From the NCBI GenBank assembly GCA_027008775.1, contig JALVDV010000001.1, positions 73,934 through 137,933 of the forward strand: DNA of 64,000 nucleotides, read 5' to 3'. The notes under the pieces were generated by a model. That model saw only the letters and a list, made by a program, of their open reading frames with translations, was not told where the DNA came from and made no database searches. This DNA comes from Candidatus Moraniibacteriota bacterium (GTDB lineage Bacteria; Patescibacteriota; Minisyncoccia; Moranbacterales; DUUL01). Position numbers and translations under genes: made by a program. Shown in pieces: positions 18,129-43,996 of this stretch. Positions within the stretch are counted from its first letter, which is position 1; every line of letters begins with the position of its first letter.

Positions 18129-18578
18129 ATGTTCAAATTTTTCCGAAAAAAGAAAAAGCAAATGTCAGCCAACGACAGCCAAGTAACCGATAACAGCGCC
18201 GTCAAAAATAACGACAATAATTCCACCGAAAATTCCAATCAAGAATCCAACAAACAACAATCTGTTAAAAAGGAGCAGGGCAGTCAAGCGGATATGATGC
18301 AAGCTGTTATGAGTGGGGCTCTCGGCGGCGCCGATATCAACACTCTCCTGGACAATATAGACACCTCCCAACTGTCTCTCAAAGAAAAAATGGGACTAAA
18401 AATGCTGAAAAAACTCCCCCGTCATAAACAAGAAGAAATCATCCGCCAAGCCCTCAACCCGCAAGAATTATACAAACACAAAGACAAAGTTTTGCAACAA
18501 ATTGATGAAATGGTTAAAGCCGGACAAATAGACAAATCGCAAGCCGAAGCCATCAAATCACAAATGGGATTAAGATAA
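18129..18578 (+). CDS. Hypothetical protein with low-complexity N/S/Q-rich N-terminus
   Basis: 149-aa ORF followed by a strong terminator; no domain recognised. Confidence 0.5.
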   Translation: MFKFFRKKKKQMSANDSQVTDNSAVKNNDNNSTENSNQESNKQQSVKKEQGSQADMMQAVMSGALGGADINTLLDNIDTSQLSLKEKMGLKMLKKLPRHKQEEIIRQALNPQELYKHKDKVLQQIDEMVKAGQIDKSQAEAIKSQMGLR

Positions 18579-18629
18579 TTTTTTCCTTTAATCTCAAAAT
18601 TTAATCCCAAAACAAAACTGAACAACCTC

Positions 18630-18670
18630 AGGCGCCGGGAGAAAAACCTCCGGCGCCTGTTTTATTTTTA
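18630..18670 (+). terminator. Rho-independent terminator
   Basis: Perfect 9-bp GC-rich stem AGGCGCCGG/CCGGCGCCT with an 11-nt loop, followed by TTTTATTTTTAA. Confidence 0.75.
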
Positions 18671-18902
18671 ATACTTGGTTTTTAATATCTGTAGAGATCT
18701 TAGCCTCCCCAAAGGTTTTTTACTAAATTTTTTTACTAAATTTCCCGAAAACGGGGCATTAAATTCTTGAACTGGTATTTTTACCAGCTTTTCAGCTAAA
18801 AATAAGTGTTTTTAAAAGAGAATATTACGACCCCACTGTCAAAACAAAAAGGTATTTTCTGGAGAAAAAAGCAACTACTACTCCATTTAACCCCAAAAGT
18901 AG

Positions 18903-18929
18903 CCACACCCCCTTGACAAAAAACAAAAA
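18903..18929 (+). promoter_or_regulatory. Promoter-like module P1 (TTGACA-15-TAGAAT)
   Basis: CCCCTTGACAAAAAAC...GCTAGAATGACGCGTCAAGG. Shares a ~20-nt upstream and ~10-nt downstream context with P2. Confidence 0.4.
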
Positions 18930-19028
18930 AAGCTAGAATGACGCGTCAAGGTGGAGGTTGAAACTGAAGCAAAAAAGAATAAATAAATTCCATAAACCAT
19001 TTCAGACCACCAACCCCTTGACAAAAAA

Positions 19029-19058
19029 TCAATAGTATGCTATAATACCGCGTCAGGC
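19029..19058 (+). promoter_or_regulatory. Consensus sigma70 promoter P2 (TTGACA-18-TATAAT)
   Basis: CCCCTTGACAAAAAATCAATAGTATGCTATAATACCGCGTCAGG. Both hexamers are exact consensus. Lies in a ~1.5 kb ORF-poor region. Confidence 0.55.
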
Positions 19059-19322
19059 TGAGAAAAGGTGAACAGACAGTTAAACAATTTAAAACAGAGA
19101 GAGCAAGAAAAGAAGCTGAGTGGGCAAAGTAAAAAAGAGCAAAATAGCAGAACCTTAGACAACTAAATAGAAGCGATGCTGGAGAGAGACGTCGCTGGTA
19201 AACACCAACAAGCAGACTATTTTCCGTTTGTTAAACTATTAAATCAAAAGCCGAAAAAGGAATAAAGTCTTCACTTGTTTGGTCGCAAATCCTGAAATCA
19301 AAGGTAACAAATTTTACAGTTT

Positions 19323-19393
19323 TTCTCCGGCCACCAGTCAAAAGACTGTAAAATTTGTTACCTTTTTTGTTTGTCCAGCAACCGCTTGCCAAA
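19323..19393 (+). terminator. Long perfect hairpin (18-bp stem, 24-nt loop) followed by T-tract; terminator or structured RNA element
   Basis: GGTAACAAATTTTACAGT ... ACTGTAAAATTTGTTACC are exact reverse complements, followed by TTTTTTGTTTG. Lies ~270-320 nt downstream of the P2 -10 element. Confidence 0.55.
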
Positions 19394-19838
19394 AAAAATT
19401 GCGGGAGAAAATAGCGGAGGAGAGAGATAAAGTTTGGGACAGAAGTAATTTTAATAATTGGTCCCAAAACTCATCTTCGCTATTTTCTTCCGACAAGGAG
19501 GAAAATAGTTTTTTGATATTGTAAAAATATCACAAAATAAAATTGTCGTTTTGAATAACTTAGAGCCAAATTTTGGAGAGAGATGTTATTCAAGACCGAC
19601 AATTATCTTAGATGGAATAAAACTTCTCCGACAAACAACGCTTTGCCGAGAAGACATTGCCCTAACGGTAATGTTGTCAACCGAATATTTTTTAGACCCG
19701 AAGCGGAGTAAAAAATATTCCTACGACACTTCCATCACCCGTTCTCGCAAGGAGATCGGCCGAGCGTGAGGACTAACCACCCTGGCGCTCGGGAATTTCC
19801 TTGCGAAAGGAAAAAGTTGTTCTTTGAAATACCGCTAA

Positions 19839-19880
19839 CGCGGTCGCAGAAAGTCGCAGACTAAACGCAGACTAACGCGG
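19839..19880. repeat. Direct-repeat block CGCGGTCGCAGAAAGTCGCAGACTAAACGCAGACTAACGCGG (left copy)
   Basis: Shares CGGTCGCAGAAA and reiterated CGCAGAC/ACGCAGA units with a block at 21676-21737. The two blocks bracket the GC-rich ORF. Confidence 0.5.
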
Positions 19881-20155
19881 AAGAATTATGTAATAGTTCT
19901 TTGAAAAAATCCCATTTTCTTTGTCTCCATTTCATCTCCTTAATGGCCAACCTCCCCAACCCAACCTTTTTCGAGTGGTTTTTGGGACAGCAATTTCAAA
20001 AAAATTGCCACCCCAAAAACCGCTCGGAAGAGTGGGAAAAATAGGGAAAAGGGATTGTGAACATGCTCCACAATTCCTGATTCAGCAGGATGGTCCTGTT
20101 GGACAAAAAAATTACCGCGCTACCGACGGTCAAAATATCGGAGAAGGAGAAAAAA

Positions 20156-21450
20156 TGAGAAGACATCAGATCAACATTACAAGCATTACCGGACTGAATA
20201 CTAGGGGCCTCTCCTCTGAGGAGGTGAGAGAGGTTGTGGAATGGAAGGAGATAGTCAACGCTGGGCAAATTCCCATAGATTGGAAGCCCAGCTGGGACAG
20301 AGCCGGGCTTGAGGAACTCGTAGACTCCGCAAAGGAGTATTACGAGGAAAGAACGGGATTAATCCTACCACATAACCTCGCGGTTCACGGCCCCTGGGTC
20401 GGTCATCCTAATGGTTACAAATTATATGAGGGTGACCGGTTCGACTCTGCTCCGGCAGAAGAAATGGTCAGCATTGCTGCTCGCTTTGCGAGCTGGCTAA
20501 AAATTATTGCTGACCAGAAATTGGTTGGTCTCCAGCGGTTGCTGGAGAAAAATTTAAGTTCAAGGGGGATGAACTCCCCACGAACAAAAATCGATCCGTA
20601 CCGTTTGCTACGTGTTTGGAGTTCTCCGCACACTGCGGAGAAAATGTTCTGGAAGTCCTATAAAAGGGCGTGGCAGATTCTCAAGCCCTTTGGGCTTGCT
20701 CCAAGCTGGAAAGCTGTTGGGCAGGTTATGACCAATTGGCATTCCTATCGTGTTGGCAAGATGGCATTTATCATTGCTGCTCGGACAGTGAACCAAATTT
20801 TGTCTCTTAAAGTGAACCGGGAATTTACCGGTAAGTCAATCAAAATTTTGGAGAAATCCAGAGGAATCGGTCAATTTGTCAATGATGGTGATTATGCGAT
20901 CTTGGCATGGGCGGTGGATCGAATTGAGACTGGAGAATTTTCTTGTATTCGCGAGGCAATTGCGAATGCAGGTCGGCTGGAATGGGATAAAACAGATGGT
21001 GTCGGTTTATGGATCGACCCGAGCTTAACGAAAGAAATCCACCGTGTAGAAGTTATACACGGATGGGATAGACAAGGATGGTTTTATTTCCTTCTCCGCC
21101 AGAAAGGAACCGGGCGGAGTTACCACTTCAGGCCATGGAAACATACAGCTCGTGAAGCTGTAAAATTCGCCATCGGTGAATGGCACAAACAGGTCAGAGC
21201 GGAGCGCAAAAAACGTAACATCCTTAAGGTTCTTCAGCCGAAGAATGCATCCGTTCTGGTTTGGATCCAGGATTCTCTGGATTCTGGGAATTGTTATATT
21301 GGAACGAGAGCTTGGTCTGAACGCAACGGTTTCAACGGGGCTATGTTTGCCCCTGCGGAGAAACTCCTAAAGTTCGCAGATGATTTGCGTGTCTTCCGGG
21401 TTCTCCAGACGGTGGCCGAAAAGGTTGCTGAGTTGAAACTTAAATATTGA
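20156..21450 (+). CDS. Hypothetical protein, ORFan of visibly higher GC than surrounding genes (431 aa from internal ATG with GGAGAAGGAG RBS)
   Basis: Long ORF; the track start at 19921 has no RBS and lies in non-coding-looking sequence. The ATG at 20156 is preceded by GGAGAAGGAGAAAAA. No RT (YxDD), TnpB or HUH motifs were found. GC-rich codon usage is atypical for this window. Confidence 0.55.
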
Positions 21451-21455
21451 ATCTC

Positions 21456-21502
21456 TCACCCGCCACGCCGGGTGATACAAAAATTTTTTTAGTTCTTTTT
21501 TT
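21456..21502 (+). terminator. Probable terminator after the ORFan
   Basis: TCACCCG-CCACGC-CGGGTGA hairpin followed by TACAAAAATTTTTTTAGTTCTTTTTTT. Confidence 0.45.
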
Positions 21503-21675
21503 AGAAATTTCTAATTTCCTCCGGGGCGTGGACTGTGGGAATAGGTTTCCGGGAGCAAGTTGTGTGGTTTACAACCTCTGCTCCCACCATTTCTTGAAAT
21601 CGGAAAATGATAAAACATTTTGCGGTTTCAAATAGATGGTTTCTTTTTCTACTAGCACGGTCGCAGAAAAATGCC

Positions 21676-21737
21676 GACCTTACACAGACTGACGCAGAAA
21701 GACACAGACACACACGGAACCAATAAAATAAACAAAC
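21676..21737. repeat. Direct-repeat block CACGGTCGCAGAAAAATGCCGACC...GACGCAGAAAGACACAGACACACACGG (right copy)
   Basis: See 19839-19880; same CGGTCGCAGAAA core and CGCAGA/CACAGAC reiterations. Confidence 0.5.
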
Positions 21738-21884
21738 TAAAAAATTAACAAATCAAATCGCTACAAGCTCGCAGGGCAGAAAAGGTGGTGAGCAAATTCT
21801 TTATCTCTCTCCAAGAATAATTCACTTATGCCTTTTGCTTATTACCCTGCGAACTTGTGGCGATTTCTTAATCCAGCGAGAATT

Positions 21885-21904
21885 CCCCGCCTGTAAGGGC
21901 GGGG
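21885..21904. repeat. Solo GC-rich hairpin CCCCGCC-TGTAAG-GGCGGGG (REP-like, or tnpA-less derivative of the IS200-like element at 53.5 kb)
   Basis: Exact reverse complement of the hairpins at 53533-53552 and 54028-54047. Its flanks (ATAGATAC on one side, ARTTCTCGCTG on the other, after reverse-complementing) match the outer flanks of the left and right hairpins of that element. Confidence 0.7.
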
Positions 21905-21996
21905 GTATCTATTTCAACCAGACAAATCCCTTTTGTGAAAATGATGCCCAACACCAAAAACTTTTTCTCTCGCCAAGACAAAACCGGCGCAACTCT

Positions 21997-22032
21997 TGAC
22001 AAATTTTCTATTTTCCTTAATATAAAAACCTG
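21997..22032 (+). promoter_or_regulatory. Promoter upstream of RND adaptor gene (TTGACA-N17-TAATAT)
   Basis: CTCTTGACAAATTTTCTATTTTCCTTAATATAAAAACC. Confidence 0.45.
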
Positions 22033-22122
22033 TTGCTTACGGGAAAAACAAGCTTAATTAGAGAAAAATTAAACCAACAAAATCCCTCTGACAGATCAAA
22101 AAAATTAATTTTTTACAATAAA

Positions 22123-23316
22123 ATGAATAATAAAAAAAGAAATTTTTTAATCATTATCGGTATCCTATTTATCATTGGCGGAGCAACTTGGGCTCATCGC
22201 CATAATTTATCCCAAACGGAAAAAGCGGCAGACAATAATCCGCGCAAAGTTAAAGTGGTTTCCGTTAGCTCTCAATACAAGGGCTTTGTTCCTTTGGAAG
22301 GAATCATCAAAGGAAAAAATGAAATTTATTTGGCCCCCAAGGCTCAAGGCCGAATTGTAAAAATATACAAAGAAATGGGAGAAAGGGTTTGGCGTGGACA
22401 ACTCCTGGCTCTAATAGACGGTCGGGAAACTTGGGCGCAAACACAAATTGCTCAAGCCGGCTACAACCTGGCTAAACGTTCCAGCAAAAAAACCAGAAAA
22501 TATTTTGACAAACAAGTCTCTCAAGCCAAAAAAGCCAAAGAATTAGCCAAAGAATCTTACGAAAATGCCAAAGCTAGCGGTGATCCGGAAAAAATCGCCC
22601 AAGCCAAGTATAACTACGAAATGGCTCGCAAACAGTTGGAGGTGGCCGAAAAAGGGCGCGATTTGCAAAAAACTATTGCCAAAGGCAAAAAGGAAGTGGC
22701 CAATCAACAACTTATAGCCAGCCAAATCGTAGCCGAGAGCAATAGAGTGCGAGCGCCTTTCAGCGGTATCATCGCTCAAGTAAAAGTGGAGAAGGGTGAT
22801 TTGGTTTCACCGGAACGACCTCTTTTTCTCCTGGTGGATGATTCCGCTTGGGAAATAAAAATATCGGTCCCGACGGAAATCATTTCTCAAATCAAGGTTG
22901 GCCAAAAGTTGAAAATAATCGGCTCTGACGGTCAAGAAACCTTCGGTCTGATTAAAGCCATCAGCCCCATGGTGGATACCTACAGTCGTAAATCGTTAAT
23001 CAAAATCAGTCTAAAGCCGAGCGATGGTTTCCGCTTAGGAGAATACGTCAAAGTTCTGGTACCAACCGCCAGTCAAGAAAACCTATTGATTATTCCTCGT
23101 CAAGCTCTATTGCAGGAATATCTTGATAATTTCATTTTCACTGTTGAAAACGGCCTAGCCAAAAAAATTCCGGTGGAAGTGGTACAAGACTTTGGCAAGC
23201 AAATCGGAGTCAAGATCAAAGATGAAGAAAACAACATCGACCTTTCCAATGTAGTTGTTAACGGACAATGGGAAATCGGCGACGGAGAGAAAGTGGAAAT
23301 CATAAAGGATAAATAA
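22123..23316 (+). CDS. Efflux RND transporter periplasmic adaptor subunit (membrane fusion protein, HlyD-like)
   Basis: N-terminal TM, lipoyl/barrel motif RVRAPFSGIIAQVKVEKGDLVS, coiled-coil region, and position immediately upstream of an RND permease. Start at internal ATG 22123 (MNNKKRNFLIIIGILF). Confidence 0.8.
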   Translation: MNNKKRNFLIIIGILFIIGGATWAHRHNLSQTEKAADNNPRKVKVVSVSSQYKGFVPLEGIIKGKNEIYLAPKAQGRIVKIYKEMGERVWRGQLLALIDGRETWAQTQIAQAGYNLAKRSSKKTRKYFDKQVSQAKKAKELAKESYENAKASGDPEKIAQAKYNYEMARKQLEVAEKGRDLQKTIAKGKKEVANQQLIASQIVAESNRVRAPFSGIIAQVKVEKGDLVSPERPLFLLVDDSAWEIKISVPTEIISQIKVGQKLKIIGSDGQETFGLIKAISPMVDTYSRKSLIKISLKPSDGFRLGEYVKVLVPTASQENLLIIPRQALLQEYLDNFIFTVENGLAKKIPVEVVQDFGKQIGVKIKDEENNIDLSNVVVNGQWEIGDGEKVEIIKDK

Positions 23317-23320
23317 AACT

Positions 23321-26300
23321 ATGTCAGAAGAAAAGAAAACGAACAAGCAGAATTTCTTTGCGCAAATAGCCACCCTGTTTATCCGTCACAAGGAGCTCGG
23401 CTTTTTAACTTTCATAGGTATCTTCCTTTGGGGATTGTTTTCTTTTGTTATTATGCCCAAACAATATAACCCCGACATCACCGCGCCCGCTTTCCAAATA
23501 GTAACCGAGTTTCCCGGCGCTACCAGTGAGGAAGTTTATCGCCTCATTACCAAGAGAATGGAAGATCGTCTCAAAGAAATCCCCACGGTGGACAAAGTTA
23601 TGTCCCAGTCTTTTGACGGTGGAGCCAGTGTGGTCATCGTTCAATTTTACATTGGTGAAGATTTGGAAAAAGCCAAAATCACTCTCATTGACAAACTGCG
23701 CAGTAATATGAGTGACAAACCTTTCGGCGCCAAAGACCCTCAAATCAAAGCCATTGATCCCGACGATGTTCCCATCATCACTTTAGCTCTGACCAGTCCA
23801 ACCTTATCGCCGGCTTCATTGCGGACTCTGGCCGACGACCTGGTTGATGAATTTAAAAAGGTTAAGGGTACTTCAGTTCTTTCTGTTATCGGCGGCAAGA
23901 AAAAAGAACTGCGAGTTAATCTGCATCCGACCCAATTGGCGCAAAATAATCTAACTGTCCAAAGAATAATTGACACCATCAGAGGAAACAATATGTATGT
24001 CTTGGCCGGCAACCTCACCGACAAAGATAACAATTTCAAGGTCATAATTGACGGACTCTTAAAAACCAAAACCGACCTGGAAAACATTGTTATCAAGCAA
24101 GAAGGGGACAGTGTTATTTACCTGAAAGATTTAGCCGACATCAAGTTGGCCGACGAAGATACCAAGTCAGCCACTTATTTTTGGCAAAAAGGTCAGAAAG
24201 AGGAACCGGCCGTCTATCTGGCTATTTCCAAACTTAAAGGAACCAATGCCACCAAGATCAGCCAGGCCGTCAAAAAGAAAATTAAAGAATTGCAAAGACG
24301 TCAAATTATCCCCGCCGATGTCCAAATTAAAACCGTCAGAGATGAAGGGCAGGTGGCTCAGGAAGCTACCATGACCTTAACCTACAATCTCTTTAGCGCC
24401 ATTGTCATAGTGGCCGCGATTCTGCTAATGTTCCTTGGCTGGAAAAGCGCCCTGATTGTCCTCATTTCCATCCCCCTTACCCTGGCCATGGTTTTTGGTA
24501 TCGGCAACTTGGCTCACCAAAATATCAATCGTATTACGCTTTTTGCCCTTATTCTCTCCCTGGGAATGCTGGTTGACGCCGCTATCGTGGTGGTGGAAAA
24601 TATTTTCCGGCTTTTCCGTGAAAATCCGGGAAAGAATCGTGTTCGCCTGATTGCCAGCGCCGTCAGTGAAGTCGGTCCCGGCCTGGTTCTCAGTACCACC
24701 ACCGTTACCTTGGCTTTCATTCCGATGGCCTTTGTCACCGGCATGATGGGACCTTATATGCGTCCCATTCCTTTCTTTGTTCCTTTGACATTGATTTCCT
24801 CCTTGCTTATCGCCTTGTTTATAATTCCTTACCTTCTCTACAATCTCTCGGGTAAAAAAGGAAACAACTCCAACCAATCATCTGAAGTCAAAACAACCAA
24901 AGATAATCGCTTTTTAGCTTTCGTTTCCAAATTAAAAAATTCTTATGCCCGTTTTCTACATTATCTTCTCAATCATCGTCCGGCCCGTCGCGCGCTAATG
25001 TTCACAGTCGTCATTTTATTGTTTGTTTCTCTCTCCTTACCCTTGCTGAAAATAGTAAAATTTCGTATGCTACCCAAGGCTGACAAAGAACAATTCTTTA
25101 TTTACCTTGACTTCCCCCAATACACCACCTTGGAAAAAACAGAAAAAGCCGTCCGGTTAGCGGAAAATTTTCTCCAAGAAAACCCTCAAGTGGTTAGTGT
25201 ACAAAGCTATATCGGCACACCACCGGTGGTTGACTTCAACGGTCTTTTCAAAGGTTCCGACGGTCGTCGCCAAGAAAATCAAGCCACTTTAAAAGTCAAC
25301 CTGGTCCACCACAAGAAAAGAAATATCACTTCCGAAGAAATCGTCAGTCAAATCAGAAAACCTCTTCTGGAAAAATTGTCAATCTTTCCCGACCTGAAAG
25401 TTAAATTGATAGAGGATCCTCCGGGCCCACCCGTTCTTTCAACTTACCTCTTAAAAATCAGCGCCAAAGATGAGAAAGTTTTAAACTCCGCCACCAACCG
25501 ATTAAAAAAATTCACCAAAAATATTGATGGCTTGGTGGACACCGACACCACCCAAAACGAAATCACTGCCAACTACATTCTAAAAGTTAAAAAAGAAGAA
25601 GCTTCCCGTTCCGGATTGAGCGTTTACCAGATAGCTACCACTCTACGCACCCTCCTACACGGAGAAAAAGTGGCTATGTATCACCAAACGGAAAAATCAG
25701 TCTGGCCAAAAGCCGAGCAGGAATTTATTGTCGTCCATTCTGACAAAAAAAATCGCGACGATAAATACGATCTGGACAATATTTATCTCACCAATCTTTT
25801 CGGGCAATCCATTCCTTTGTCCAGTGTGGTGGAGTACACTCAAGAAAAAATGATTCCCGTCATTTATTCCGATGACAGGGAACGAACCGAATATATTTAC
25901 GGAGAAATGGACAAGAAGAGCGTTATCTACGCTATGCTTGACACTCTCAAATATCTCCTTAAGGACTACCGTCCTTTCGGCGCCGACACCAAAATCGCCC
26001 ATTGGAATCCTCTAAAAGTCGTTTACGAAAATCAAAAGACCCATCAACAAGTCAGCGTTCGTTTGGGCGGAGAATGGAAATTGACCCTAGAGGTTTTCCG
26101 AGATTTGGGTATTGCCATGGCCGTCGCTTTGGTAATGATTTATTTTGTCCTGGTGGCGCGTTTTCGCTCCCTAAGAATTCCCTTGCTTATTATGGGCACT
26201 ATTCCTTTTTCCTTTATCGGAGTTATGCCCGGCTTCGCTCTCTTGGGTTGGACCAAAGGAGTTTACTTTAATGCCACCAGTATGATTGGCGTTATCGCTC

Positions 26301-26611
26301 TCTCCGGCATCGTGGTAAACAACGCCATTATGCTCTTGGAATATCTTAACCAATTAAAATCAGAAGGCTTAGGCTTGCAAGAAGCAATCATTAAAGCCGG
26401 TCGCACCAGACTACTGCCAATTATGCTCACTTCCCTGACAACCATTTTCGGTTCTCTGACAATCATTTCCGATCCCGTTTGGGAAGGACTGGCTTGGTCA
26501 ATTGTCTTCGGACTTTCTCTGGCCGCCTTTTTGACACTGATTCTTTTCCCTATAATGTACAACCATTTTGAAAAGAAAAAGTGGCCGGCAGAAAATGAAA
26601 ACGTTGCCTAA
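23321..26611 (+). CDS. Efflux RND transporter permease (AcrB/HAE1-like)
   Basis: 1096 aa with 12-TM architecture, two large periplasmic loops, and the conserved motifs GMLVDAAIVVVEN and SGIVVNNAIMLLEY. Confidence 0.9.
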   Translation: MSEEKKTNKQNFFAQIATLFIRHKELGFLTFIGIFLWGLFSFVIMPKQYNPDITAPAFQIVTEFPGATSEEVYRLITKRMEDRLKEIPTVDKVMSQSFDGGASVVIVQFYIGEDLEKAKITLIDKLRSNMSDKPFGAKDPQIKAIDPDDVPIITLALTSPTLSPASLRTLADDLVDEFKKVKGTSVLSVIGGKKKELRVNLHPTQLAQNNLTVQRIIDTIRGNNMYVLAGNLTDKDNNFKVIIDGLLKTKTDLENIVIKQEGDSVIYLKDLADIKLADEDTKSATYFWQKGQKEEPAVYLAISKLKGTNATKISQAVKKKIKELQRRQIIPADVQIKTVRDEGQVAQEATMTLTYNLFSAIVIVAAILLMFLGWKSALIVLISIPLTLAMVFGIGNLAHQNINRITLFALILSLGMLVDAAIVVVENIFRLFRENPGKNRVRLIASAVSEVGPGLVLSTTTVTLAFIPMAFVTGMMGPYMRPIPFFVPLTLISSLLIALFIIPYLLYNLSGKKGNNSNQSSEVKTTKDNRFLAFVSKLKNSYARFLHYLLNHRPARRALMFTVVILLFVSLSLPLLKIVKFRMLPKADKEQFFIYLDFPQYTTLEKTEKAVRLAENFLQENPQVVSVQSYIGTPPVVDFNGLFKGSDGRRQENQATLKVNLVHHKKRNITSEEIVSQIRKPLLEKLSIFPDLKVKLIEDPPGPPVLSTYLLKISAKDEKVLNSATNRLKKFTKNIDGLVDTDTTQNEITANYILKVKKEEASRSGLSVYQIATTLRTLLHGEKVAMYHQTEKSVWPKAEQEFIVVHSDKKNRDDKYDLDNIYLTNLFGQSIPLSSVVEYTQEKMIPVIYSDDRERTEYIYGEMDKKSVIYAMLDTLKYLLKDYRPFGADTKIAHWNPLKVVYENQKTHQQVSVRLGGEWKLTLEVFRDLGIAMAVALVMIYFVLVARFRSLRIPLLIMGTIPFSFIGVMPGFALLGWTKGVYFNATSMIGVIALSGIVVNNAIMLLEYLNQLKSEGLGLQEAIIKAGRTRLLPIMLTSLTTIFGSLTIISDPVWEGLAWSIVFGLSLAAFLTLILFPIMYNHFEKKKWPAENENVA

Positions 26612-26673
26612 ATTTGCTTTGGAAAAATTTTTGTTATAAAATAAGCAACGTAACAAATTATTTTTAAACACCA

Positions 26674-27000
26674 ATGTTTGAAATTTATCAAGACAAGAAG
26701 GGGGAATTTCGCTTTAGATTGTTGGCTGCCAACGGCGAAACTATTCTCTCCTCGGAGGGATACAAAACAAAGGCGGCCTGCAAAAACGGCATTGCCTCTG
26801 TTATTAAAAACAGTCAAGACAAAGAATTGTTTGAAGTTAGAGAGGCTAAAAACGGAAAAAGTCATTTCGTTTTAAAAGCCAGAAACAATCAAGTCATCGG
26901 CCAAAGTCAAATGTACGCCAGCAAAAGGGGGGCTAGCTGTGGCATCCGTTCCGTAATGAACAACGCCAAGAAAAAAGAAATAAAAGATTTGACAAAATAA
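26674..27000 (+). CDS. DUF1508 / YegP-family protein (tandem UPF0339 repeats)
   Basis: Two repeats of the FE.Y.DKKGE.RFRL.A.NGE.I..SEGY..K..C.NGI.SV motif (MFEIYQDKKGEFRFRLLAANGETILSSEGYKTKAACKNGIASV and HFVLKARNNQVIGQSQMYASKRGASCGIRSV). Confidence 0.7.
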   Translation: MFEIYQDKKGEFRFRLLAANGETILSSEGYKTKAACKNGIASVIKNSQDKELFEVREAKNGKSHFVLKARNNQVIGQSQMYASKRGASCGIRSVMNNAKKKEIKDLTK

Positions 27001-32466: not shown

Positions 32467-33219
32467 ATGGGGAAAAGAAAAGGGGAAGGGGATAATAATC
32501 AAATTCCCGTCATCATTTCTCTAGGCGGTTCCCTCATCGCTCCCGTCGCCGGTCTTAATGTAAACTTTATCAGAGAGTTTAAAAAGCTTATTCTGCAAGA
32601 AATAGAGAAGGGCAGACGTTTCGTGATTATCACCGGTGGCGGACAGCTCAGTCGCAACTACGTCAAAGCCCTTAATCAAATCACTCCCAGCGATGAAGAA
32701 GAGCAAGATTGGCTAGGCATCCACGCCACCAGAATGAATGCTCATTTTATTAAAGCGGTCTTCAAAAAATATGCTCACCCTCGCATCAACAAAAACCCTC
32801 GCACCAAAGAAAATTTGCAAAAACATTTCGCTCAGGGAGAAAAAATTATGGTTGCCGCCGGTTGGCGTCCCGGTTGGTCCACCGACTACGTCGCTACCAT
32901 TCTGGCAGAAAGATTTAAAGCTAAAAAACTGATCAACCTTTCCAACGTTGAATATATTTTTGACCGCGATCCCAAAAAGCATCCCCAAGCCCAAAAAATC
33001 GAAGAAATCAGTTGGACTGATTTCCGCAAAATCGTCGGCAACAAATGGAGTCCCGGTCTAAATTCTCCCTTTGATCCCATCGCCGCCCGATTGGCGGAAA
33101 AAAATGACCTGGAAGTAGCCATTATTGCCGGCAAAAACCTGAGCAGTCTGTCTCGCTATCTCAACAATCAACCCTTCACCGGAAGTCTAATAAAAGGCTC
33201 AACCAACAACAAGGCTTAA
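32467..33219 (+). CDS. Amino-acid kinase family protein, probable archaeal-type UMP kinase
   Basis: VIISLGGSLIAP...FVIITGGGQLSRNY...MVAAGWRPGWSTDYVA: AAK-fold signatures with a length (250 aa) matching archaeal-type PyrH. Confidence 0.55.
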   Translation: MGKRKGEGDNNQIPVIISLGGSLIAPVAGLNVNFIREFKKLILQEIEKGRRFVIITGGGQLSRNYVKALNQITPSDEEEQDWLGIHATRMNAHFIKAVFKKYAHPRINKNPRTKENLQKHFAQGEKIMVAAGWRPGWSTDYVATILAERFKAKKLINLSNVEYIFDRDPKKHPQAQKIEEISWTDFRKIVGNKWSPGLNSPFDPIAARLAEKNDLEVAIIAGKNLSSLSRYLNNQPFTGSLIKGSTNNKA

Positions 33220-33471
33220 ACAACCCTCACCTCTTGACAATTTGCTTTTTTCTTTATACAATCACCAGATTGATAAAAGGCAAGAATACTTAAGTAAATT
33301 TCACTAAATTGACAAAACAAACAAAGGGGTTTATCATTTGAGTGTTCAACAACACAAAATACAAACGAACTACCTGTAAGTGTAGAAGCAGGTTGTTTTT
33401 ATTGTTGTTTCGATAAAACATATCTTAAATAACACCCCATCTAAATTTAGTTAAATCTATTTCAAATAATC

Positions 33472-34965
33472 ATGCCCCCGATTTTTGTTCAAGGAGAATC
33501 ATCTAAAAATTTCTGCCATCAAAAAAGCAACCCTCTCAATAATGGATTAGTTTTTAAGGGTAATAAATTCATTACCCATACTAATCTACATCCTAAATAC
33601 TCTGCTCTGGAAACTATACAAAATCACCAGAAATTGGTAATCATTGGTCTTTTGACTATTCTGTTACTTGGAATTATTGTAAATTGGCACCAAACAGTAC
33701 TAATAACTATTTCCGTTTTAACAATTCTATACTTTGCTGATTTATTATTCAATCTCTTTCTAACCGTTAAAACTCTTAGAAAAACACCTGAAATTGTTGT
33801 CAACAAACAAGAGATTTCGCTTCTCCAAGATAAAGATTTACCGATTTATACCATTTTCTGCCCCTTGTATAAAGAGTGGCAAGTATTACCCGACTTTATT
33901 AAATCCATTAGTAAAATAAATTGGCCAAAAAACAAATTAGATGTCCAGCTACTTCTGGAAGAAGACGATAAAAAAACAATTGCTGAAATAAAAAAAATGC
34001 GATTACCGAACCATTTTCGAGTTATCATCGTTCCACATAGTGAACCAAAAACCAAACCAAAGGCTTGTAATTACGGGCTACACCATGCGCAAGGCGAATA
34101 TGCCGTAATTTATGATGCTGAAGACAATCCTGATCCTAACCAGCTTAAAAAAGCTTTTATTGCTTTTCAAAAGACAAGAAAAAATAATGTGGTTTGCGTA
34201 CAAGCAAAATTAAATTTTTATAATTCACATCAAAATATTCTTACCAGATTTTTTACCATGGAATATTCTCTTTGGTTTGATTTAATTCTTCCTGGTCTGC
34301 AATCTATTAAAGCGCCCATTCCCCTGGGTGGAACATCTAATCACTTTCGCACCAAAGATCTAAAATATCTGCAAGGATGGGATCCTTTCAATGTTACTGA
34401 GGATTGTGATTTGGGAATAAGAATAGCTAAACTCGGTTTGCACACCGCCATTATAAACTCTACCACCCTGGAAGAAGCAAATAGTAAACTCGGCAACTGG
34501 TTCAGGCAACGCTCTCGTTGGATTAAAGGTTATATGCAAACCTATCTGGTACACATGCGACGACCCCACGAATTTATAACCGATTTTAAAAATCCAAACA
34601 TTTTATTCTTCCAGCTAACAGTTGGTGGTAAAATCTTGTCTCTTTTCATAAACCCCCTAATGTGGATAATGACTATATCATACTTTCTATTCAAAGATTC
34701 TCTGGGGCCAATCATTGAATCTTTCTATTTAACTCCTGTTTTCTACATGGCCATCTTTTCATTAATAATTGGTAACTTTTTTTATATCTACAATTATATG
34801 ATTGGATGCGCAAAGAGAGAACAATGGGATATAATAAAATATGCCTTCCTGGTACCATTCTATTGGTTGGCAATCAGTCTAGCCGCCTGGAAAGCTTTAT
34901 TTCAACTTGTAACCAAACCTCACTACTGGGAAAAAACAGTGCATGGATTACATCTAAAAAAATAG
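33472..34965 (+). CDS. Membrane GT2 processive beta-glycosyltransferase (cellulose/chitin/PNAG synthase-like, QxxRW)
   Basis: N- and C-terminal TM helices. GT2 core with DAEDNPD (DxD), and QRSRWIKG (QxxRW), the processive-synthase hallmark. Confidence 0.75.
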   Translation: MPPIFVQGESSKNFCHQKSNPLNNGLVFKGNKFITHTNLHPKYSALETIQNHQKLVIIGLLTILLLGIIVNWHQTVLITISVLTILYFADLLFNLFLTVKTLRKTPEIVVNKQEISLLQDKDLPIYTIFCPLYKEWQVLPDFIKSISKINWPKNKLDVQLLLEEDDKKTIAEIKKMRLPNHFRVIIVPHSEPKTKPKACNYGLHHAQGEYAVIYDAEDNPDPNQLKKAFIAFQKTRKNNVVCVQAKLNFYNSHQNILTRFFTMEYSLWFDLILPGLQSIKAPIPLGGTSNHFRTKDLKYLQGWDPFNVTEDCDLGIRIAKLGLHTAIINSTTLEEANSKLGNWFRQRSRWIKGYMQTYLVHMRRPHEFITDFKNPNILFFQLTVGGKILSLFINPLMWIMTISYFLFKDSLGPIIESFYLTPVFYMAIFSLIIGNFFYIYNYMIGCAKREQWDIIKYAFLVPFYWLAISLAAWKALFQLVTKPHYWEKTVHGLHLKK

Positions 34966-34971
34966 AATTTT

Positions 34972-36513
34972 ATGTCTGAGCAAAAAACAAAGATTTCATT
35001 ATCAAAAAGACAGATTGTTATTTTAGCTCTATTTTTTACTTTTTACCTCTCTATAGCCTATTACCTTGTCTTTGACTTACAGCTTGTTTTTAGAGATGCA
35101 GTTTCAAGGACGGAAAAAGCATTCTTGGTTTTCTTTGACAATTCAGCAAAAATTTCATCTATTGGGTTTATTTGGACACCTCTCCCAAGTATATTGCAAC
35201 TACCACTCGTTATATTTAAACCACTGGCTAAATATGGATTTAGCGGAAATATTATATCAGCACTGTTCGGCGCTTTAAGTTGTTTGTATATTTACAAATT
35301 CCTCAATAAATCACACTTAAATTTCTTTTCAAAAATAATTTTTTTGCTATTGTTTGGGCTAAATCCAATGATTATTCTGTACTCAGCAAATGGTATGTCT
35401 GAAATAATTTTTGTCTTTTTTATAATACTGGCCAGTTGGCACTTAATAAAGTGGAACAAAACAAAGAGAATGACCGAACTCATTTTACTAGGAATAATCT
35501 TATCCTTAGCTTTTTTCACCAGGTACGAAACGATTCCACTTGCCATCACAATCGGCTTCCTTGTAATCTTTTTGAACTACGGAAAAATTAAGACAAGATT
35601 TAATGAAATTCAAGGAAGTATTGTCCTATACTTTCTGCCAATATTATTTTCTGTTTTTTTATGGATAGTCGCCAACTGGTTAATCATGGGAGACCCCTTC
35701 TACTTTCTGCGTGGAGAATATTCTAATATTGAACAATCAAATTTTATAGGAGGGGAGCTGAAAAAATTAAAAGGCAATCTTGTCGATGCAATTTATTATG
35801 CAACAAAAATGATTGCCCATCTTTACCCGGTTTTCTTCGCAACACTAATATATGCTATTTACAAACAGTTTTCAAAAATATCATTAATAACTATTTCCAT
35901 AATATTCTTATCTTTAAGCATAATCCTATTTCATATATTAATGTTACTTAAAGGCGTTTCCTACGGCTGGTTAAGATTCTACATATACATAATTCCATTT
36001 TCGTTCATACTATTTAGTATCACAATAGAAAATGTAAGAAAAAAAATGCTGGTAGCAACACTCTTCATCACACTTTTTTTTATTTCAAACATATACTCAC
36101 TCAAATCTATTTCAGATAAAAATTATGGCAAAGAAGAATGCCATGTCATAGAAGCCATCAAAGGACACTTTGACGAAAATTATTCATACATCAAAGATAT
36201 GGAGGTTGTTGACTACATTAACAAAAACAATCTAACCAATAAAAAAATTATTGTCGATGACTTTACCGGCTTTGGAATTATTCTAAACTCATTGAACCCT
36301 AAAATATTTATTAACAATTCTGACAAGGAATTTAAGAATAGTTTAGAGAATCCAAGGCAATATGCTGATTACATTTTGGTAAGACGCCCCACAGGAATTG
36401 GAATTATTGATGCAATAAATAAAAAGTATCCGGATATGTTTACTAAAGGAGCCAGCTATCTTAGACTAAAAAAAGATTTTGGCATTTGGAGATTGTATGA
36501 AATTATCAAATAG
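34972..36513 (+). CDS. GT-C-fold membrane glycosyltransferase candidate (PMT/ArnT-like), paralog A
   Basis: 513 aa, ~11 TM helices. N-terminal region FDNSAKISSIGFIWTPLPSILQLPLV parallels DIGKRVVDGLQPGLAQLGSVWLPLPHILMTITIW in the next gene. Confidence 0.55.
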   Translation: MSEQKTKISLSKRQIVILALFFTFYLSIAYYLVFDLQLVFRDAVSRTEKAFLVFFDNSAKISSIGFIWTPLPSILQLPLVIFKPLAKYGFSGNIISALFGALSCLYIYKFLNKSHLNFFSKIIFLLLFGLNPMIILYSANGMSEIIFVFFIILASWHLIKWNKTKRMTELILLGIILSLAFFTRYETIPLAITIGFLVIFLNYGKIKTRFNEIQGSIVLYFLPILFSVFLWIVANWLIMGDPFYFLRGEYSNIEQSNFIGGELKKLKGNLVDAIYYATKMIAHLYPVFFATLIYAIYKQFSKISLITISIIFLSLSIILFHILMLLKGVSYGWLRFYIYIIPFSFILFSITIENVRKKMLVATLFITLFFISNIYSLKSISDKNYGKEECHVIEAIKGHFDENYSYIKDMEVVDYINKNNLTNKKIIVDDFTGFGIILNSLNPKIFINNSDKEFKNSLENPRQYADYILVRRPTGIGIIDAINKKYPDMFTKGASYLRLKKDFGIWRLYEIIK

Positions 36514-36659
36514 AATCCCAAAACTGTTCAAAATTACAAAAGCGATTAACAAAAATTTATTTTCATTCTAAGGCAAATACAAGATTTAAGACATTATCAT
36601 TGGTGCCTTAAATCCAAGTAAAATATTTTTCATATCCTGAAATCAGAAATAAACAAAAA

Positions 36660-38273: not shown

Positions 38274-39585
38274 AGTTATTATTTTTTCCATTCTCCTGAG
38301 CACAGGCTTGCTTTCTATTTACAAATTTCACTTCCAATCTGCCAATAAATCCGGAAATATTAACAAACAGTCAGCAAAAAATATAACTTGCCCCGCGCCA
38401 AGTCAACAGACATTTTGGAAAATACAATCAATTGATACTATGAAACAGTCCCGAGATTTGGCCCGAGCAAAAAAAAATGACAAGAGCTTTGAAAGAGAAA
38501 TTGACCAACAGGTATCCGCTATCTCTTCAACAGGCGCTACGCACATTACTATTGATACTCCGTATGATCCAGAATTTATCCCTTTTTTAAAGAAGTGGAT
38601 CGCCAGCGCCAGAAAATATAATCTAAAAATCTGGTTCAAAGGAAATTGGTCTGGCTGGGAAGGGTGGTTTAATTACCCCAAAAATCTCAGCCGTCGCCAA
38701 CATCAGCAAAAAACAATTGCCTTCATTCTCCAATACCCGGAGTTTTTTGAAGACGGAGACATTTTTTCTCCTTGTCCCGAGTGTGAAAATGGAGGACCGG
38801 GAGATCCGCGTCAAAATAAAAATGCTGTAAGCCATCAACAATTTATTATTAAAGAATTTGAGGCCTGTAATAAATCTTTCAAAAAAATTAACAAAAAAGT
38901 TTTGGTTCTTTTTCCGATGAATAACGATGTCGCCAAAATGATAATGGATAAAAAAACGACTGCGGCACTGGGAGGATATGTCACCACTGATCACTATAGT
39001 AAGAGCCACCAGCAACTAATTGAAGACCTAAGACAATTGGCCATAAATTCTGGTGGAAAAATAGTGCTGGGAGAGTTCGGTTTACCCATTCCCGACATCC
39101 ACGGCCAAATCTCTCCGAAAAAACAAGCTGAATGGATCAAGGCTTTACTGAAAGACCTGTCCATTCATAAGAAAATAATTGGGGTTAATTACTGGGTTAA
39201 CAAGGGGGGAAGTACAGCCATTTGGCAAAACAATAATGAAGCAAAACCGGCAGTAAACATATTAAGAAAAGCCTTTAAACCCCAAGTTTTTTACGGACGA
39301 ATAGTTGATGAATTTAATCAAAGCATTAAGAGTGCCGAGATCAAAAGTCAGAATTACTCAACCGGTACAAACCAGCAGGGTTGTTTTTTCTTGTTGGTAT
39401 GGCCTCAAGAAAAATCATTGTTCACCATCAAAGCTGATAATTTCAACGATAAAAATATTACTTTAAACAATCAGTCAAAGTCATATCAAAAAATAGTCCT
39501 TTCCCAAAAGGACGTCAACAAATACTATCACATCAAACTGGAACTGTATAAAAAATTTGGTTTAAATTTACAAAAACACAAATAA
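38260..39585 (+). CDS. Secreted hypothetical protein, possible glycoside-hydrolase-like (TIM barrel) enzyme
   Basis: N-terminal signal/TM and a W/Y-rich region (WFKGNWSGWEGWFNYPK, GVNYWVNKGG). The assignment is only tentative. Confidence 0.4.
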   Translation: MIRNKVIIFSILLSTGLLSIYKFHFQSANKSGNINKQSAKNITCPAPSQQTFWKIQSIDTMKQSRDLARAKKNDKSFEREIDQQVSAISSTGATHITIDTPYDPEFIPFLKKWIASARKYNLKIWFKGNWSGWEGWFNYPKNLSRRQHQQKTIAFILQYPEFFEDGDIFSPCPECENGGPGDPRQNKNAVSHQQFIIKEFEACNKSFKKINKKVLVLFPMNNDVAKMIMDKKTTAALGGYVTTDHYSKSHQQLIEDLRQLAINSGGKIVLGEFGLPIPDIHGQISPKKQAEWIKALLKDLSIHKKIIGVNYWVNKGGSTAIWQNNNEAKPAVNILRKAFKPQVFYGRIVDEFNQSIKSAEIKSQNYSTGTNQQGCFFLLVWPQEKSLFTIKADNFNDKNITLNNQSKSYQKIVLSQKDVNKYYHIKLELYKKFGLNLQKHK

Positions 39586-43959: not shown

Positions 43960-43996
43960 TTAATCTAAATTTCAATCTAAGTTTCAATTTTAACTC

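What the first reader, a model, noticed from the sequence alone, without database searches (positions are those of the whole stretch)
18600..21950. GC-rich ORFan with a long non-coding leader, tandem consensus promoters, flanking CGCAGA-type direct repeats and a solo IS-end hairpin: candidate foreign module of unknown function
Most of 18.6-20.15 kb is ORF-poor (the track's three 72-81-aa ORFs there are not convincing), which is unusual in this otherwise tightly packed window. The region contains two copies of a ~55-bp promoter module, one with exact TTGACA/TATAAT hexamers, and an 18-bp perfect-stem hairpin with a U-tract. The 431-aa ORF that follows has clearly higher GC than every neighbouring gene and a strong GGAGAAGGAG RBS. 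It lacks motifs for RT, TnpB/RuvC, HUH, or nucleotidyltransferase that I could recognise. Two related repeat blocks built from CGGTCGCAGAAA plus reiterated CGCAGAC units sit immediately 5' of the ORF's RBS (19839-19880) and ~225 nt 3' of its stop (21676-21737). A REP-like GC hairpin identical to the ends of the IS200-like element at 53.5 kb lies 430 bp downstream. Together this looks like a horizontally acquired unit, consisting of a ncRNA or structured leader plus a novel protein, rather than core genome.
Basis: partly seen in the sequence, partly recalled or inferred. Interest (0 to 1): 0.8.

Follow-up and report, generated by a model that had tools for sequence, protein, structure and literature searches.

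The report
Swappable gene behind conserved RNA leader
A long non-coding RNA leader that close relatives share drives a slot holding different genes in different strains; here the slot holds a gene from a large, uncharacterised family seen so far in ultra-small (Patescibacteria/CPR) bacteria, carrying its own conserved RNA control element.

Summary
The sequence features are real. The reading "one foreign module" is only partly right.

**Swappable cassette.** Two close relatives (94-96% identical flanks) keep the promoter, leader and, in one, the trailer. They carry other ORFs in place of 19985/20042-21450. So the ORF plus its ~115-nt 5'UTR is swappable, while the leader is resident.

**5'UTR element.** The cassette's 5'UTR is conserved in nine family loci. 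It has a hairpin with compensatory changes in 9 of 10 pairs and an invariant pseudoknot-like motif next to the ribosome-binding site.

**Leader.** The resident leader has:
- consensus promoters;
- GGAGAGAGA motifs, mostly placed in hairpin loops;
- an overlapping antiterminator/terminator pair;
- boxA-like sequences.

**Trailer.** A trailer hairpin shows the complementary loop UCUCUCUCC. Distant CPR loci repeat this layout.

**Repeats.** The CGCAGA repeats belong to a reiterated inter-cassette element. The GC hairpin is a 41-bp IS200-derived insertion.

Function is inferred, not shown.

The parts
18629..18670 (+). Intrinsic terminator of the upstream 149-aa gene (GC stem plus U-tract). It marks the left limit of the unit.
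   Evidence: RNAfold -23.2 kcal/mol; sequence.
18913..18939 (+). P1, the degenerate upstream copy of the promoter module (TTGACA-15-TAGAAT). The duplication is present in the window and L016 and absent in L014/L015.
   Evidence: (D2).
19018..19046 (+). P2, a consensus extended -10 promoter (TTGACA-17-TGCTATAAT). The same promoter type precedes family genes in L001, L003, L007 and L010.
19047..19814 (+). Resident non-coding leader. It carries four GAGAGAG-core motifs (19097, 19181-19189, 19419-19427, 19575-19583), three of them predicted in hairpin or internal loops.
   Evidence: 4 motifs against 0.097 expected, P=3e-6. Folds. 99% identical in L014. Substitutions against L016: 3.8% in paired vs 9.4% in unpaired positions.
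19300..19372 (+). T1, a 25-bp AU-rich hairpin plus U-tract (intrinsic-terminator shape). Its loop contains UUUUUCUCC, which is complementary to GGAGAGAGA if G-U pairs are allowed.
   Evidence: I2; -30 kcal/mol; identical in L014 and L016. The loop complementarity was read by eye.
19402..19515 (+). H3 (19402-19492; holds GGAGAGAGAUAAAG) overlaps the 5' arm of T2 (19479-19509 plus U6). Together they form an antiterminator/terminator pair.
   Evidence: H3 -42.3, T2 alone -17.2, forced T2 -33.8 kcal/mol; z=-7.0; T2 listed.
19815..20041 (+). Inter-cassette element. It contains boxA-like GTTCTTTGAAA at 19819 and 19896, a small hairpin ACCGCUAACGCGGU, CGCAGA repeats (the left direct repeat, 19835-19882), and a long imperfect hairpin at 19966-20032.
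   Evidence: These are the only two exact GTTCTTTGAAA in 64 kb. The element occurs twice in L014 (12500-12750 and 13215-13420).
20042..20154 (+). Family-specific 5'UTR element. Helices: P2 (20051-20059 with 20069-20077) and P3 (20083-20101). Pseudoknot-like motif TACCGCGCTACCGACGGTCAAAATATCGGA at 20113-20142: S1 = 20114-20117 with 20127-20130; S2 = 20123-20126 with 20138-20141. SD at 20140-20149.
   Evidence: Alignments A6/A7. 93.4% of cells paired against 35-47% for slid controls; P3 has compensatory changes in 9 of 10 pairs. The motif occurs once per family locus and nowhere else.
20155..21450 (+). 431-aa protein of a large uncharacterised CPR family. pI 9.75, 4.4% Trp. Nearly invariant residues include R110, W114, S157, P158, G180, H324, W343 and G378-N379-C380.
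   Evidence: AF2 pLDDT 92; no fold neighbour.
21456..21495 (+). Weak terminator-like hairpin with a distal U-tract. It starts the conserved trailer; the cassette's right junction is at 21450/21451.
   Evidence: -11.3 kcal/mol; junction.
21652..21719 (+). Right, partial copy of the CGCAGA block (the right direct repeat). It is conserved in L016.
   Evidence: (D1, D3, D4).
21755..21866 (+). Closing hairpin. Its 11-nt apical loop UAUCUCUCUCC (21802-21812) is complementary to the leader motif; 14 nt are perfectly complementary to 19419-19432.
   Evidence: z=-7.5; (I20); duplex -23.6 kcal/mol. Counterpart in L001 (z=-9.3, loop UUUCUCUCUCC). CUCUCUC also lies in predicted loops in L008 and L002.
21872..21912 (+). 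41-bp solo hairpin insertion derived from the IS200-type element at 53.5 kb. It is not part of the unit.
   Evidence: Absent in L016; its flanks combine those of the two IS-end copies. Exact hairpin matches. tnpA matches Y1_Tnp at E=1e-27.

Best explanation
The segment is one transcription unit of a Patescibacteria-type genome, built in three layers.

1. **Resident non-coding leader.** Strong sigma-70 promoter(s) start an RNA of about 1 kb. This RNA carries GGAGAGAGA motifs, mostly in hairpin loops, an intrinsic-terminator hairpin (T1), and an antiterminator/terminator pair (H3/T2). It ends in a ~230-nt inter-cassette element with two boxA-like sequences and hairpins. Inferred: the leader meters how many polymerases continue, and the boxA sites recruit NusB/NusE-type antitermination factors. 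Those factors would let the polymerase cross untranslated RNA and weak terminators.

2. **Cargo slot.** Related strains carry different promoter-less ORF cassettes in this slot, probably exchanged by recombination in the conserved flanks. Here the cargo is the 431-aa gene of a large family seen in CPR/Patescibacteria records, together with the family's own 5'UTR element (two hairpins plus an invariant H-type pseudoknot-like motif touching the SD). Inferred: this element is a translational operator. Most likely the basic, Trp-rich protein it precedes binds it (autoregulation); less likely it is a riboswitch.

3. **Resident trailer.** Its long hairpin presents UCUCUCUCC, complementary to the leader motif. 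Inferred: loop-loop pairing links the 5' and 3' ends of the transcript, or tunes H3/T2.

Shown: the anatomy, the conservation, the cassette replacement, and covariation in P3. Inferred: every functional step, and the protein's activity.
For: **Cassette swap.** Flanks are 94-96% identical, the leader 99% and 91-93%, and the trailer 93.6%, while 19985/20042-21450 is replaced. L014 has 3-4 GC-rich cassettes (0.48-0.61 against 0.35-0.43), preceded by boxA-like sequences and, for the first, by the CGGTCGCAGAA core.

**No promoter in the slot.** No promoter-like site lies between T2 and the ATG, so the ORF depends on P1/P2.

**boxA-like motif.** Exact copies occur only at 19819 and 19896 in 64 kb. 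A relaxed form occurs upstream of family genes at 8 sites in 3.7 kb, against a background of 1.7e-4 per nt (P=3e-7). It sits at -196 to -201 in three loci. BoxA is already known to protect long untranslated transcripts other than rRNA (PMC7665894).

**Leader motif.** GAGAGAG is enriched in the leaders of the window (P=3e-6) and L001 (P=1e-11). It also follows a similar promoter in L008.

**Closing hairpins.** The window and L001 hairpins carry the complementary 11-nt loop (z -7.5 and -9.3).

**Attenuator.** H3 and T2 overlap.

**5'UTR.** (covariation; one copy per family locus).

**Protein.** 469 clusters; pLDDT 92; pI 9.75.

**Shared cargo.** Cargo families recur between loci: L016_182 ~ L010_217 ~ L002_146, and L001_138 ~ L008_136. 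The 182-aa family has 105 Patescibacteria-type relatives.
Against: - There is no expression data, so it is not shown that transcripts pass T1 and T2 or reach the trailer.
- The boxA-like sites lie downstream of T1 and T2, so they cannot explain read-through there.
- The boxA assignment rests on resemblance to the E. coli consensus, counted by eye, and on recalled Firmicutes rrn leaders. The organism's own rRNA leader was not available.
- S2 of the pseudoknot is invariant, so it has no covariation support. S1 has one compensatory case.
- The 14-nt leader/trailer complementarity alone is not above shuffles (29 of 300). The trailer hairpin read on the minus strand would simply be one more GGAGAGAGA loop.
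- L002, L003 and L007 have the family gene without a GAGAGAG leader.
- The cassette differences come from metagenome assemblies.
Confidence: 0.5

Rival explanations
1. The leader is one or more independent small-RNA genes (P1/P2 to T1, about 320 nt; possibly a second RNA ending at T2). Their function would be unrelated to the downstream ORF, which is expressed only by incidental read-through.
For: T1 is a near-perfect 25-bp hairpin plus U-tract. The leader is kept at 99% and 91% identity in relatives whatever follows it. Leader and family gene occur apart: L003 and L007 have short leaders, and L014/L016 have other cargo.
Against: There is no promoter-like site for the ORF downstream of T2. boxA-like elements and cassettes follow in the same orientation. 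H3 overlaps T2 as an antiterminator, which implies regulated read-through. The same leader, cargo and closing-hairpin order appears in L001 and L008.
Confidence: 0.2
2. One reading: the whole 18.7-21.9 kb (leader plus ORF plus repeats) is one horizontally acquired module.
For: The ORF GC is the highest in the window. Direct repeats flank it. The ORF is absent in relatives.
Against: Leader and trailer are present and highly similar in relatives that lack the ORF. GC3 is ordinary. The repeats are part of a reiterated inter-cassette element. No integrase or transposase is adjacent.
Confidence: 0.08
3. An integron-like cassette platform: a common promoter expresses promoter-less cassettes that are captured by site-specific recombination at the inter-cassette elements, using an unidentified recombinase.
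For: Cassettes differ between close relatives at the same slot. A repeated boundary element holding an imperfect hairpin precedes cassettes. A single strong promoter lies upstream. ACCCAAC (an RYYYAAC-type site) sits next to the hairpin (read).
Against: No tyrosine recombinase flanks the locus in the window, L014 or L016. No GTTRRRY core lies at the 3' side of the hairpin. The family cassette brings its own long 5'UTR. The left junction differs between L014 and L016 (20041 vs 19984), which fits homologous recombination better.
Confidence: 0.07
4. A DNA-level mobile element. Its left end would carry several GGAGAGAGA-hairpin sites and its right end one inverted copy. The family protein would be a new recombinase that acts on them.
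For: Several copies on one strand upstream and a single inverted copy downstream, seen in the window, L001 and L008. The protein has a new fold with conserved His and Cys. Neighbourhoods vary, and AAA_14/DUF4143 genes are often adjacent.
Against: The motifs all lie downstream of a consensus promoter on the transcribed strand, mostly in RNA hairpin loops. Their spacing is irregular. The unit persists at the same site in relatives without the protein. Many family genes have no such motifs nearby. No target-site duplication was found.
Confidence: 0.06

Closest known systems
BoxA/Nus-factor antitermination sites of rRNA operons, phage lambda nut sites, and the boxA upstream of CRISPR arrays (PMC7665894)
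   Same: A boxA-like sequence (GTTCTTTGAAA; by my own count about 10 of 13 positions shared with E. coli TGCTCTTTAACAA) is followed by a small hairpin. It sits in a long untranslated transcript behind strong, here tandem, promoters. Leader and trailer carry complementary sequences, as in rRNA processing stems.
   Different: The cargo is protein-coding cassettes. The boxA-like element is repeated before each cassette and lies after two terminator-like hairpins. Nus binding and the organism's own rRNA boxA were not tested.
Integron cassette arrays
   Same: One upstream promoter, promoter-less cassettes that differ between close relatives, and a repeated hairpin-containing boundary element.
   Different: No IntI, no attC core sites, and junction positions that are not fixed. 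At least one cassette carries its own long regulatory 5'UTR.
SD-adjacent H-type pseudoknot regulators: preQ1-I riboswitch; autoregulatory operators such as those of T4 gene 32 or ribosomal protein S15 mRNAs (from my own knowledge)
   Same: A compact stem, loop, stem and A-rich linker sit directly 5' of the SD. The sequence is nearly invariant across proteins that are only 28-58% identical.
   Different: No Rfam model matches. The ligand or protein partner is unknown. Only one compensatory change supports S1 and none supports S2.
Csr/Rsm-type RNAs with a short motif repeated in hairpin loops, and attenuators run by RNA-binding proteins (PyrR, TRAP, LicT; from my own knowledge)
   Same: A purine-rich motif containing GGA is displayed several times in loops. 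An overlapping antiterminator/terminator pair contains one copy.
   Different: The motif is GGAGAGAGA with irregular spacing. A complementary loop exists in cis. No known binding protein has been identified.
IS200/IS605 palindrome-associated elements (PATE/REP-like)
   Same: The 41-bp insertion carries the exact end hairpin of the resident IS200-type element and is missing in a close relative.
   Different: It is a bystander, not part of the transcription unit's conserved design.

Membership tests
Recently acquired genomic island | Presence/absence among close relatives | tested here: met
   Met for 19985/20042-21450 only. Leader and trailer are present in relatives.
Recently acquired genomic island | Atypical synonymous-site composition | tested here: not met
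   GC3 is 0.491 against 0.47-0.50 in neighbours; the excess is in GC2. The family gene is GC-richer than its locus in 5 of 6 loci, and in L001 its GC3 is close to locus GC.
Recently acquired genomic island | Adjacent mobility gene and att-type flanking repeats | tested here: not met
   Neighbours are SHMT, FolD, a 149-aa ORF, and HlyD-like and AcrB-like genes. The repeats belong to a reiterated inter-cassette element.
BoxA/Nus antitermination site | Match to the boxA consensus, at a conserved position in the leader | tested here: inconclusive
   The only two exact copies in 64 kb lie in the leader. The motif is enriched upstream of family genes (P=3e-7) at about -200. The consensus comparison was made by eye and from memory.
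BoxA/Nus antitermination site | Same sequence in the organism's own rRNA leader; NusB/NusE binding | not testable with these tools
   There is no rRNA gene in the window, and no binding assay is available.
Integron | IntI integrase next to the array | tested here: not met
Integron | attC sites with RYYYAAC and GTTRRRY cores | tested here: not met
   An imperfect hairpin is present, but no GTTRRRY lies on its 3' side (inspected by eye).
Integron | Promoter-less cassettes behind a common promoter, differing between relatives | tested here: met
Known Rfam RNA family (riboswitch, leader, sRNA) | Covariance-model match | tested here: not met
   The only hit above a gathering score is a tRNA at 50 kb. 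At E<=10 there are only hairpin-type chance hits.
Structured cis-regulatory RNA (generic) | Conserved structure with compensatory changes | tested here: met
   P3 has compensatory changes in 9 of 10 pairs. Overall covariation score is 0.276 against 0.05-0.10 for slid controls, and 0 of 500 shuffles reached it. S2 is invariant.
Transcription attenuator | Mutually exclusive antiterminator and terminator helices | tested here: met
   H3 (19402-19492) shares 19479-19492 with T2. Regulation itself was not tested.
Known protein families (Pfam, NCBIfam, PADLOC, PDB) | Significant profile or fold match | tested here: not met
IS200/IS605-derived solo hairpin | Identity to the IS end hairpins, and insertion polymorphism | tested here: met

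The most novel reading that the evidence does not exclude
The GGAGAGAGA-hairpin leader and the closing hairpin with the complementary UCUCUCUCC loop together define a previously undescribed CPR RNA element. It brackets exchangeable gene cassettes. It would be a self-pairing (kissing-loop) scaffold or sensor RNA, possibly bound by the basic 431-aa family protein, that controls a 'cassette operon' without any integron machinery.
Probability: 0.15. Interest if true: 0.85.

Novelty: new variant of a known kind. Interest (0 to 1): 0.6.

Why it matters
CPR/Patescibacteria genomes are small and tightly packed, so more than 1 kb of conserved non-coding RNA in front of a gene slot is costly and probably functional.

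The locus offers three testable objects:
- a candidate new cis-regulatory RNA (covarying hairpin plus SD-adjacent pseudoknot motif) tied to one protein family;
- a protein family of at least 469 clusters with a confident predicted structure and no detectable fold relative;
- a leader/trailer pair with complementary loop motifs that frames cargo differing between strains of about 95% identity.

If the boxA reading holds, it extends Nus-type antitermination to protein-coding accessory cassettes in a phylum where gene regulation is almost unstudied.

Tried and rejected
**RNA searches**
- Rfam, gathering and E<=10: nothing relevant.
- tRNA/tmRNA: none in the region.

**Protein searches**
- Pfam, NCBIfam, PADLOC and PDB sequence searches: nothing.
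- BFVD: nothing. afdb50 was unavailable.
- tblastn of the C-terminal domain against phage genomes: only E about 0.3.
- A second word-indexed protein search with the 44-sequence profile added almost nothing.

**Collection scans**
- Viral contigs, with the family and with the 182-aa cargo: no relatives. The profile A4 was too diverse to scan.
- GTDB species representatives: no protein relative and no pseudoknot motif.
- Metagenome contigs: one extra locus, L003.

**Ideas rejected**
- Replication origin with iterons: the cumulative GC skew does not turn here and the motif spacing is irregular.
- Small ORFs in the leader as genes: TTG starts, mirrored on both strands of palindromes, no Pfam hit, and one is deleted in L016.
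- TRAP or PyrR sites: wrong spacing and no Rfam PyrR hit.
- Leader/trailer complementarity as a single long processing stem: the three matches are collinear rather than antiparallel, and two of them are low-complexity.

**Literature**
- Searches for the boxA-like sequence found nothing usable.

Full report
**1. What is in the sequence**

The region lies between a 149-aa ORF (18129-18578, followed by a strong terminator at 18629-18670) and an HlyD-like/AcrB-like efflux pair (from 22033). From 18579 to 20154 there is no credible ORF. The three 72-81-aa ORFs start with TTG, mirror each other across palindromes, and have no Pfam hit. One of them is deleted in a close relative.

- P2 (19018-19046) matches TTGACA-17-TATAAT perfectly and has a TG extension.
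- P1 is a degenerate copy of the same ~55-60-bp module 105 bp upstream, with a 15-nt spacer.
- The ORF starts at 20155 behind GGAGAAGGAG.
- The CGCAGA-type direct repeat (19835-19882 and 21652-21699) is 75% identical. Only 1 of 300 shuffles reached its score.
- The GC hairpin is exact at 21885, 53533 and 54028.

**2. Composition**

The ORF has the highest GC of 40 ORFs (0.478; mean 0.393, sd 0.042). Its GC3 (0.491) matches the neighbours, and the excess is in GC2. Homologues are 6-11 points GC-richer than their loci in 5 of 6 cases. In L001 the gene's GC3 (0.343) is close to the overall locus GC (0.315). High GC therefore looks mainly like a property of this Gly/Ala/Arg/Trp-rich protein. It is not evidence of recent transfer.

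**3. The protein**

The word-indexed search found only 8 relatives. An exhaustive HMMER profile search found 469 clusters at 50% identity, 117 of them at E<=1e-30, typically 400-450 aa long.

- One member is labelled as coming from a Patescibacteria MAG.
- A co-occurring cargo family is labelled Patescibacteria, Giovannonibacteria and Wolfebacteria.
- No Pfam, NCBIfam, PADLOC or PDB-sequence match exists for the query or for 44 members.
- The protein is basic (pI 9.75) and has 4.4% Trp.
- Nearly invariant positions include R110, W114, S157-P158, G180, H324, W343 and G378-N379-C380. In the model C380 sits immediately before a predicted helix and H324 lies in a predicted strand.
- The only outside lead is phrog_1196, hit by 15 of 44 members in the GNCxxGT region (best E 2.4e-5).

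The activity remains unknown.

**4. A conserved 5'UTR element belongs to the gene**

Upstream of nine distinct family genes (window, L001-L008) the last ~115-170 nt are conserved. Three features stand out.

- A segment GGAATTGTG can pair with CACAATTCC (P2). In most loci it can alternatively pair with an upstream copy, forming a longer hairpin.
- A hairpin P3 shows compensatory changes at 9 of 10 pairs.
- The nearly invariant string TACCGCGCTACCGACGGTCAAAATATCGGA runs into the SD.

The string can form ACCG/CGGU (S1) and CCGA/UCGG (S2) in H-type pseudoknot topology.

- On the alignment, 93.4% of cells pair, against 35-47% for slid controls, and no shuffle reaches the covariation score.
- L008 changes S1 to ACCC/GGGU, which is compensatory. 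S2 never varies, so it is untested.
- The motif occurs exactly once in every locus with a family gene of this clade, 12-16 nt before the ATG. It occurs nowhere else in the window or in the other loci.
- A distant homologue (L010) lacks it.

**5. Comparison with close relatives: the decisive result**

Members of the folD protein cluster led to syntenic contigs L014 (GCA_026992875.1) and L016 (GCA_027038515.1). blastn gives the following.

| Window segment | L014 | L016 |
|---|---|---|
| glyA-folD-149-aa block | 96.2% | 94.6% |
| Leader | 19011-20041: 99.0% | 18617-19519: 91%; 19795-19984: 92.7% |
| 19985-21450 | homology ends at 20041 | replaced by ORFs of 182 and 112 aa |
| 21451-27000 | only 21564-21639 (89%), elsewhere in the contig | 93.6% |

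- The right junction falls immediately after the stop codon, at the start of a shared hairpin.
- The left junction falls within or just after the long imperfect hairpin 19966-20032.
- In L014 the leader is followed by three or four GC-rich ORFs (0.48-0.61 against a 0.35-0.43 background). BoxA-like GTTCTTTGAAA or GTTCTTTAAAA sequences precede them, and the first is also preceded by the CGGTCGCAGAA core.
- A second copy of the ~200-nt block (boxA, CGCAGA repeats, boxA, hairpin) lies at L014 13215-13420.

The ORF with its own UTR is a replaceable cargo. The leader and trailer are resident. The tandem promoter duplication is itself polymorphic, with one copy in L014 and L015.

**6. The resident leader and trailer**

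- *Motif enrichment.* The leader carries four GAGAGAG-core motifs on the transcribed strand within 480 nt (0.097 expected, P=3e-6). L001, a distant CPR locus whose family gene is 58% identical, has seven in its 1.2-kb leader (P=1e-11). L008 has four behind a similar promoter, 3.9 kb upstream of its family gene, with other ORFs between.
- *Loop display.* In predicted folds, three of the four window motifs lie in hairpin or internal loops.
- *Attenuator.* H3 (19402-19492, -42 kcal/mol), which contains GGAGAGAGAUAAAG, shares 19479-19492 with the 13-bp stem of T2 (then U6). This is an antiterminator/terminator arrangement.
- *Closing hairpin.* Downstream of the cargo, a very stable hairpin (21755-21866, z=-7.5) has the 11-nt apical loop UAUCUCUCUCC. 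L001 has a counterpart (z=-9.3) with loop UUUCUCUCUCC, and this holds the only CTCTCTC in that 13.6-kb locus. In L008, the only CTCTCTC on the plus strand lies in a predicted apical loop downstream of the array. L002 has one in a hairpin loop region. L005 pairs the two motifs in a local hairpin.
- *Caveat on significance.* The 14-nt perfect complementarity 19419-19432 / 21799-21812 (duplex -23.6 kcal/mol) is not significant on its own. The recurrence of the same motif pair in similar structural settings in separate loci is what carries weight.
- *Conservation.* Against L016, substitutions are rarer in predicted paired positions (3.8%) than in unpaired ones (9.4%). T1 and the arms of H3 are essentially unchanged. 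There is too little variation for covariation.

**7. boxA-like elements**

- GTTCTTTGAAA occurs exactly twice in 64 kb, at 19819 and 19896.
- A relaxed form lies upstream of family genes far more often than elsewhere (P=3e-7), at -196 to -201 in L001-L003.
- By my own count it shares about 10 of 13 positions with E. coli boxA. It also resembles Firmicutes rrn leaders as I recall them.
- BoxA-dependent antitermination is documented for non-rRNA untranslated transcripts such as CRISPR arrays, and the consensus drifts between phyla (PMC7665894).
- This assignment is a lead, not a test. The window has no rRNA gene for comparison.

**8. Neighbourhood of the family elsewhere**

- Family genes are solitary, sit in varied contexts, and always lie behind a near-consensus extended -10 promoter.
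- AAA_14/DUF4143 ATPase genes are adjacent in L001 and L002. The divergent gene upstream in L003 looks like the same type by eye.
- Cargo families recur. The 182-aa protein that fills the slot in L016 is homologous to neighbours of the family gene in L010 (E=4e-35) and L002 (E=3e-13). L001's 138-aa ORF matches a 136-aa ORF in L008.
- L008 also has a distant paralogue next to the family gene (hhalign probability 79%).
- No relatives were found on viral contigs.

**9. Interpretation**

The best-supported picture is a promoter-leader-slot-trailer unit.

*Shown:* the anatomy, its conservation, the cargo replacement, and the RNA covariation in P3.

*Inferred:*
- the leader attenuates or regulates transcription through T1 and H3/T2;
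- the boxA-like sites give Nus-type processivity across untranslated RNA and between cassettes;
- the pseudoknot motif at the SD is a translational operator, most simply for autoregulation by the basic protein it precedes;
- the leader and trailer loops pair.

The rivals are independent sRNA genes, a whole foreign module, an integron-like capture platform, and a DNA-level mobile element. They are listed with their tests in the Rival explanations section.

**10. The GC hairpin**

It is a 41-bp insertion (about 21872-21912) that is absent in L016. Its left flank matches the copy at 54028 and its right flank matches the copy at 53533. Those two copies bracket an IS200-type tnpA (Y1_Tnp, E=1e-27). 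It is a bystander.

**11. Verdict**

This is a new variant of known kinds of regulation, joined to an uncharacterised protein family with no fold neighbour. It is worth experimental follow-up. Interest 0.6.

Noticed in passing
window 53533-54047: An IS200-type element. tnpA is at 53559-53996 on the minus strand (Y1_Tnp, E=1e-27) and is bracketed by two identical 20-nt GC hairpins. It lies between a MazG-like gene and a GrpB/nucleotidyltransferase-like gene.
   Followed up: partly
L016 11439-12069: The relative L016 has a 630-bp insertion between the terminator of the 149-aa gene and the promoters. It carries its own promoter-like site and a 135-aa ORF with a hydrophobic N-terminus. This intergenic region takes up insertions repeatedly.
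   Followed up: no
window 18913-19046; L014 11721-11765; L016 12367-12502: The 105-bp tandem promoter duplication is polymorphic. The window and L016 have two copies; L014 and L015 have one.
   Followed up: partly
L001 7243-8439; L002 4449-5600 and 7940-9214; L003 about 1-1230 (minus strand): AAA_14/DUF4143 ATPase genes lie next to the family gene in L001 and L002. The gene upstream in L003 looks like the same type, judged by eye only.
   Followed up: no
L002 about 880-900 and 1094-1118; L003 1459-1480: A GC hairpin of the type CCTGCCTRCCGGYAGGCAGG recurs in two unrelated CPR loci near the family gene. It may be another REP-like element.
   Followed up: no
L008 6302-7552: A 417-aa ORF directly downstream of the family gene is a distant paralogue. 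It shares the G-x-NSP and RA-x-x-I motifs of the helical domain (hhalign probability 79%).
   Followed up: partly
window 33000-45000 and 54000-59000: Blocks of markedly lower GC (0.27-0.37) than the first half of the window (0.38-0.48). They could be other compositional islands.
   Followed up: no
L014 11721-12750 vs window 19011-20041: The leader is 99% identical, while the flanking housekeeping genes are 96% identical. This suggests either strong constraint or recent recombination of this stretch between strains.
   Followed up: no
window 1-64000: GC skew is negative over almost the whole window. It is near zero or positive only around 15-24 kb.
   Followed up: no
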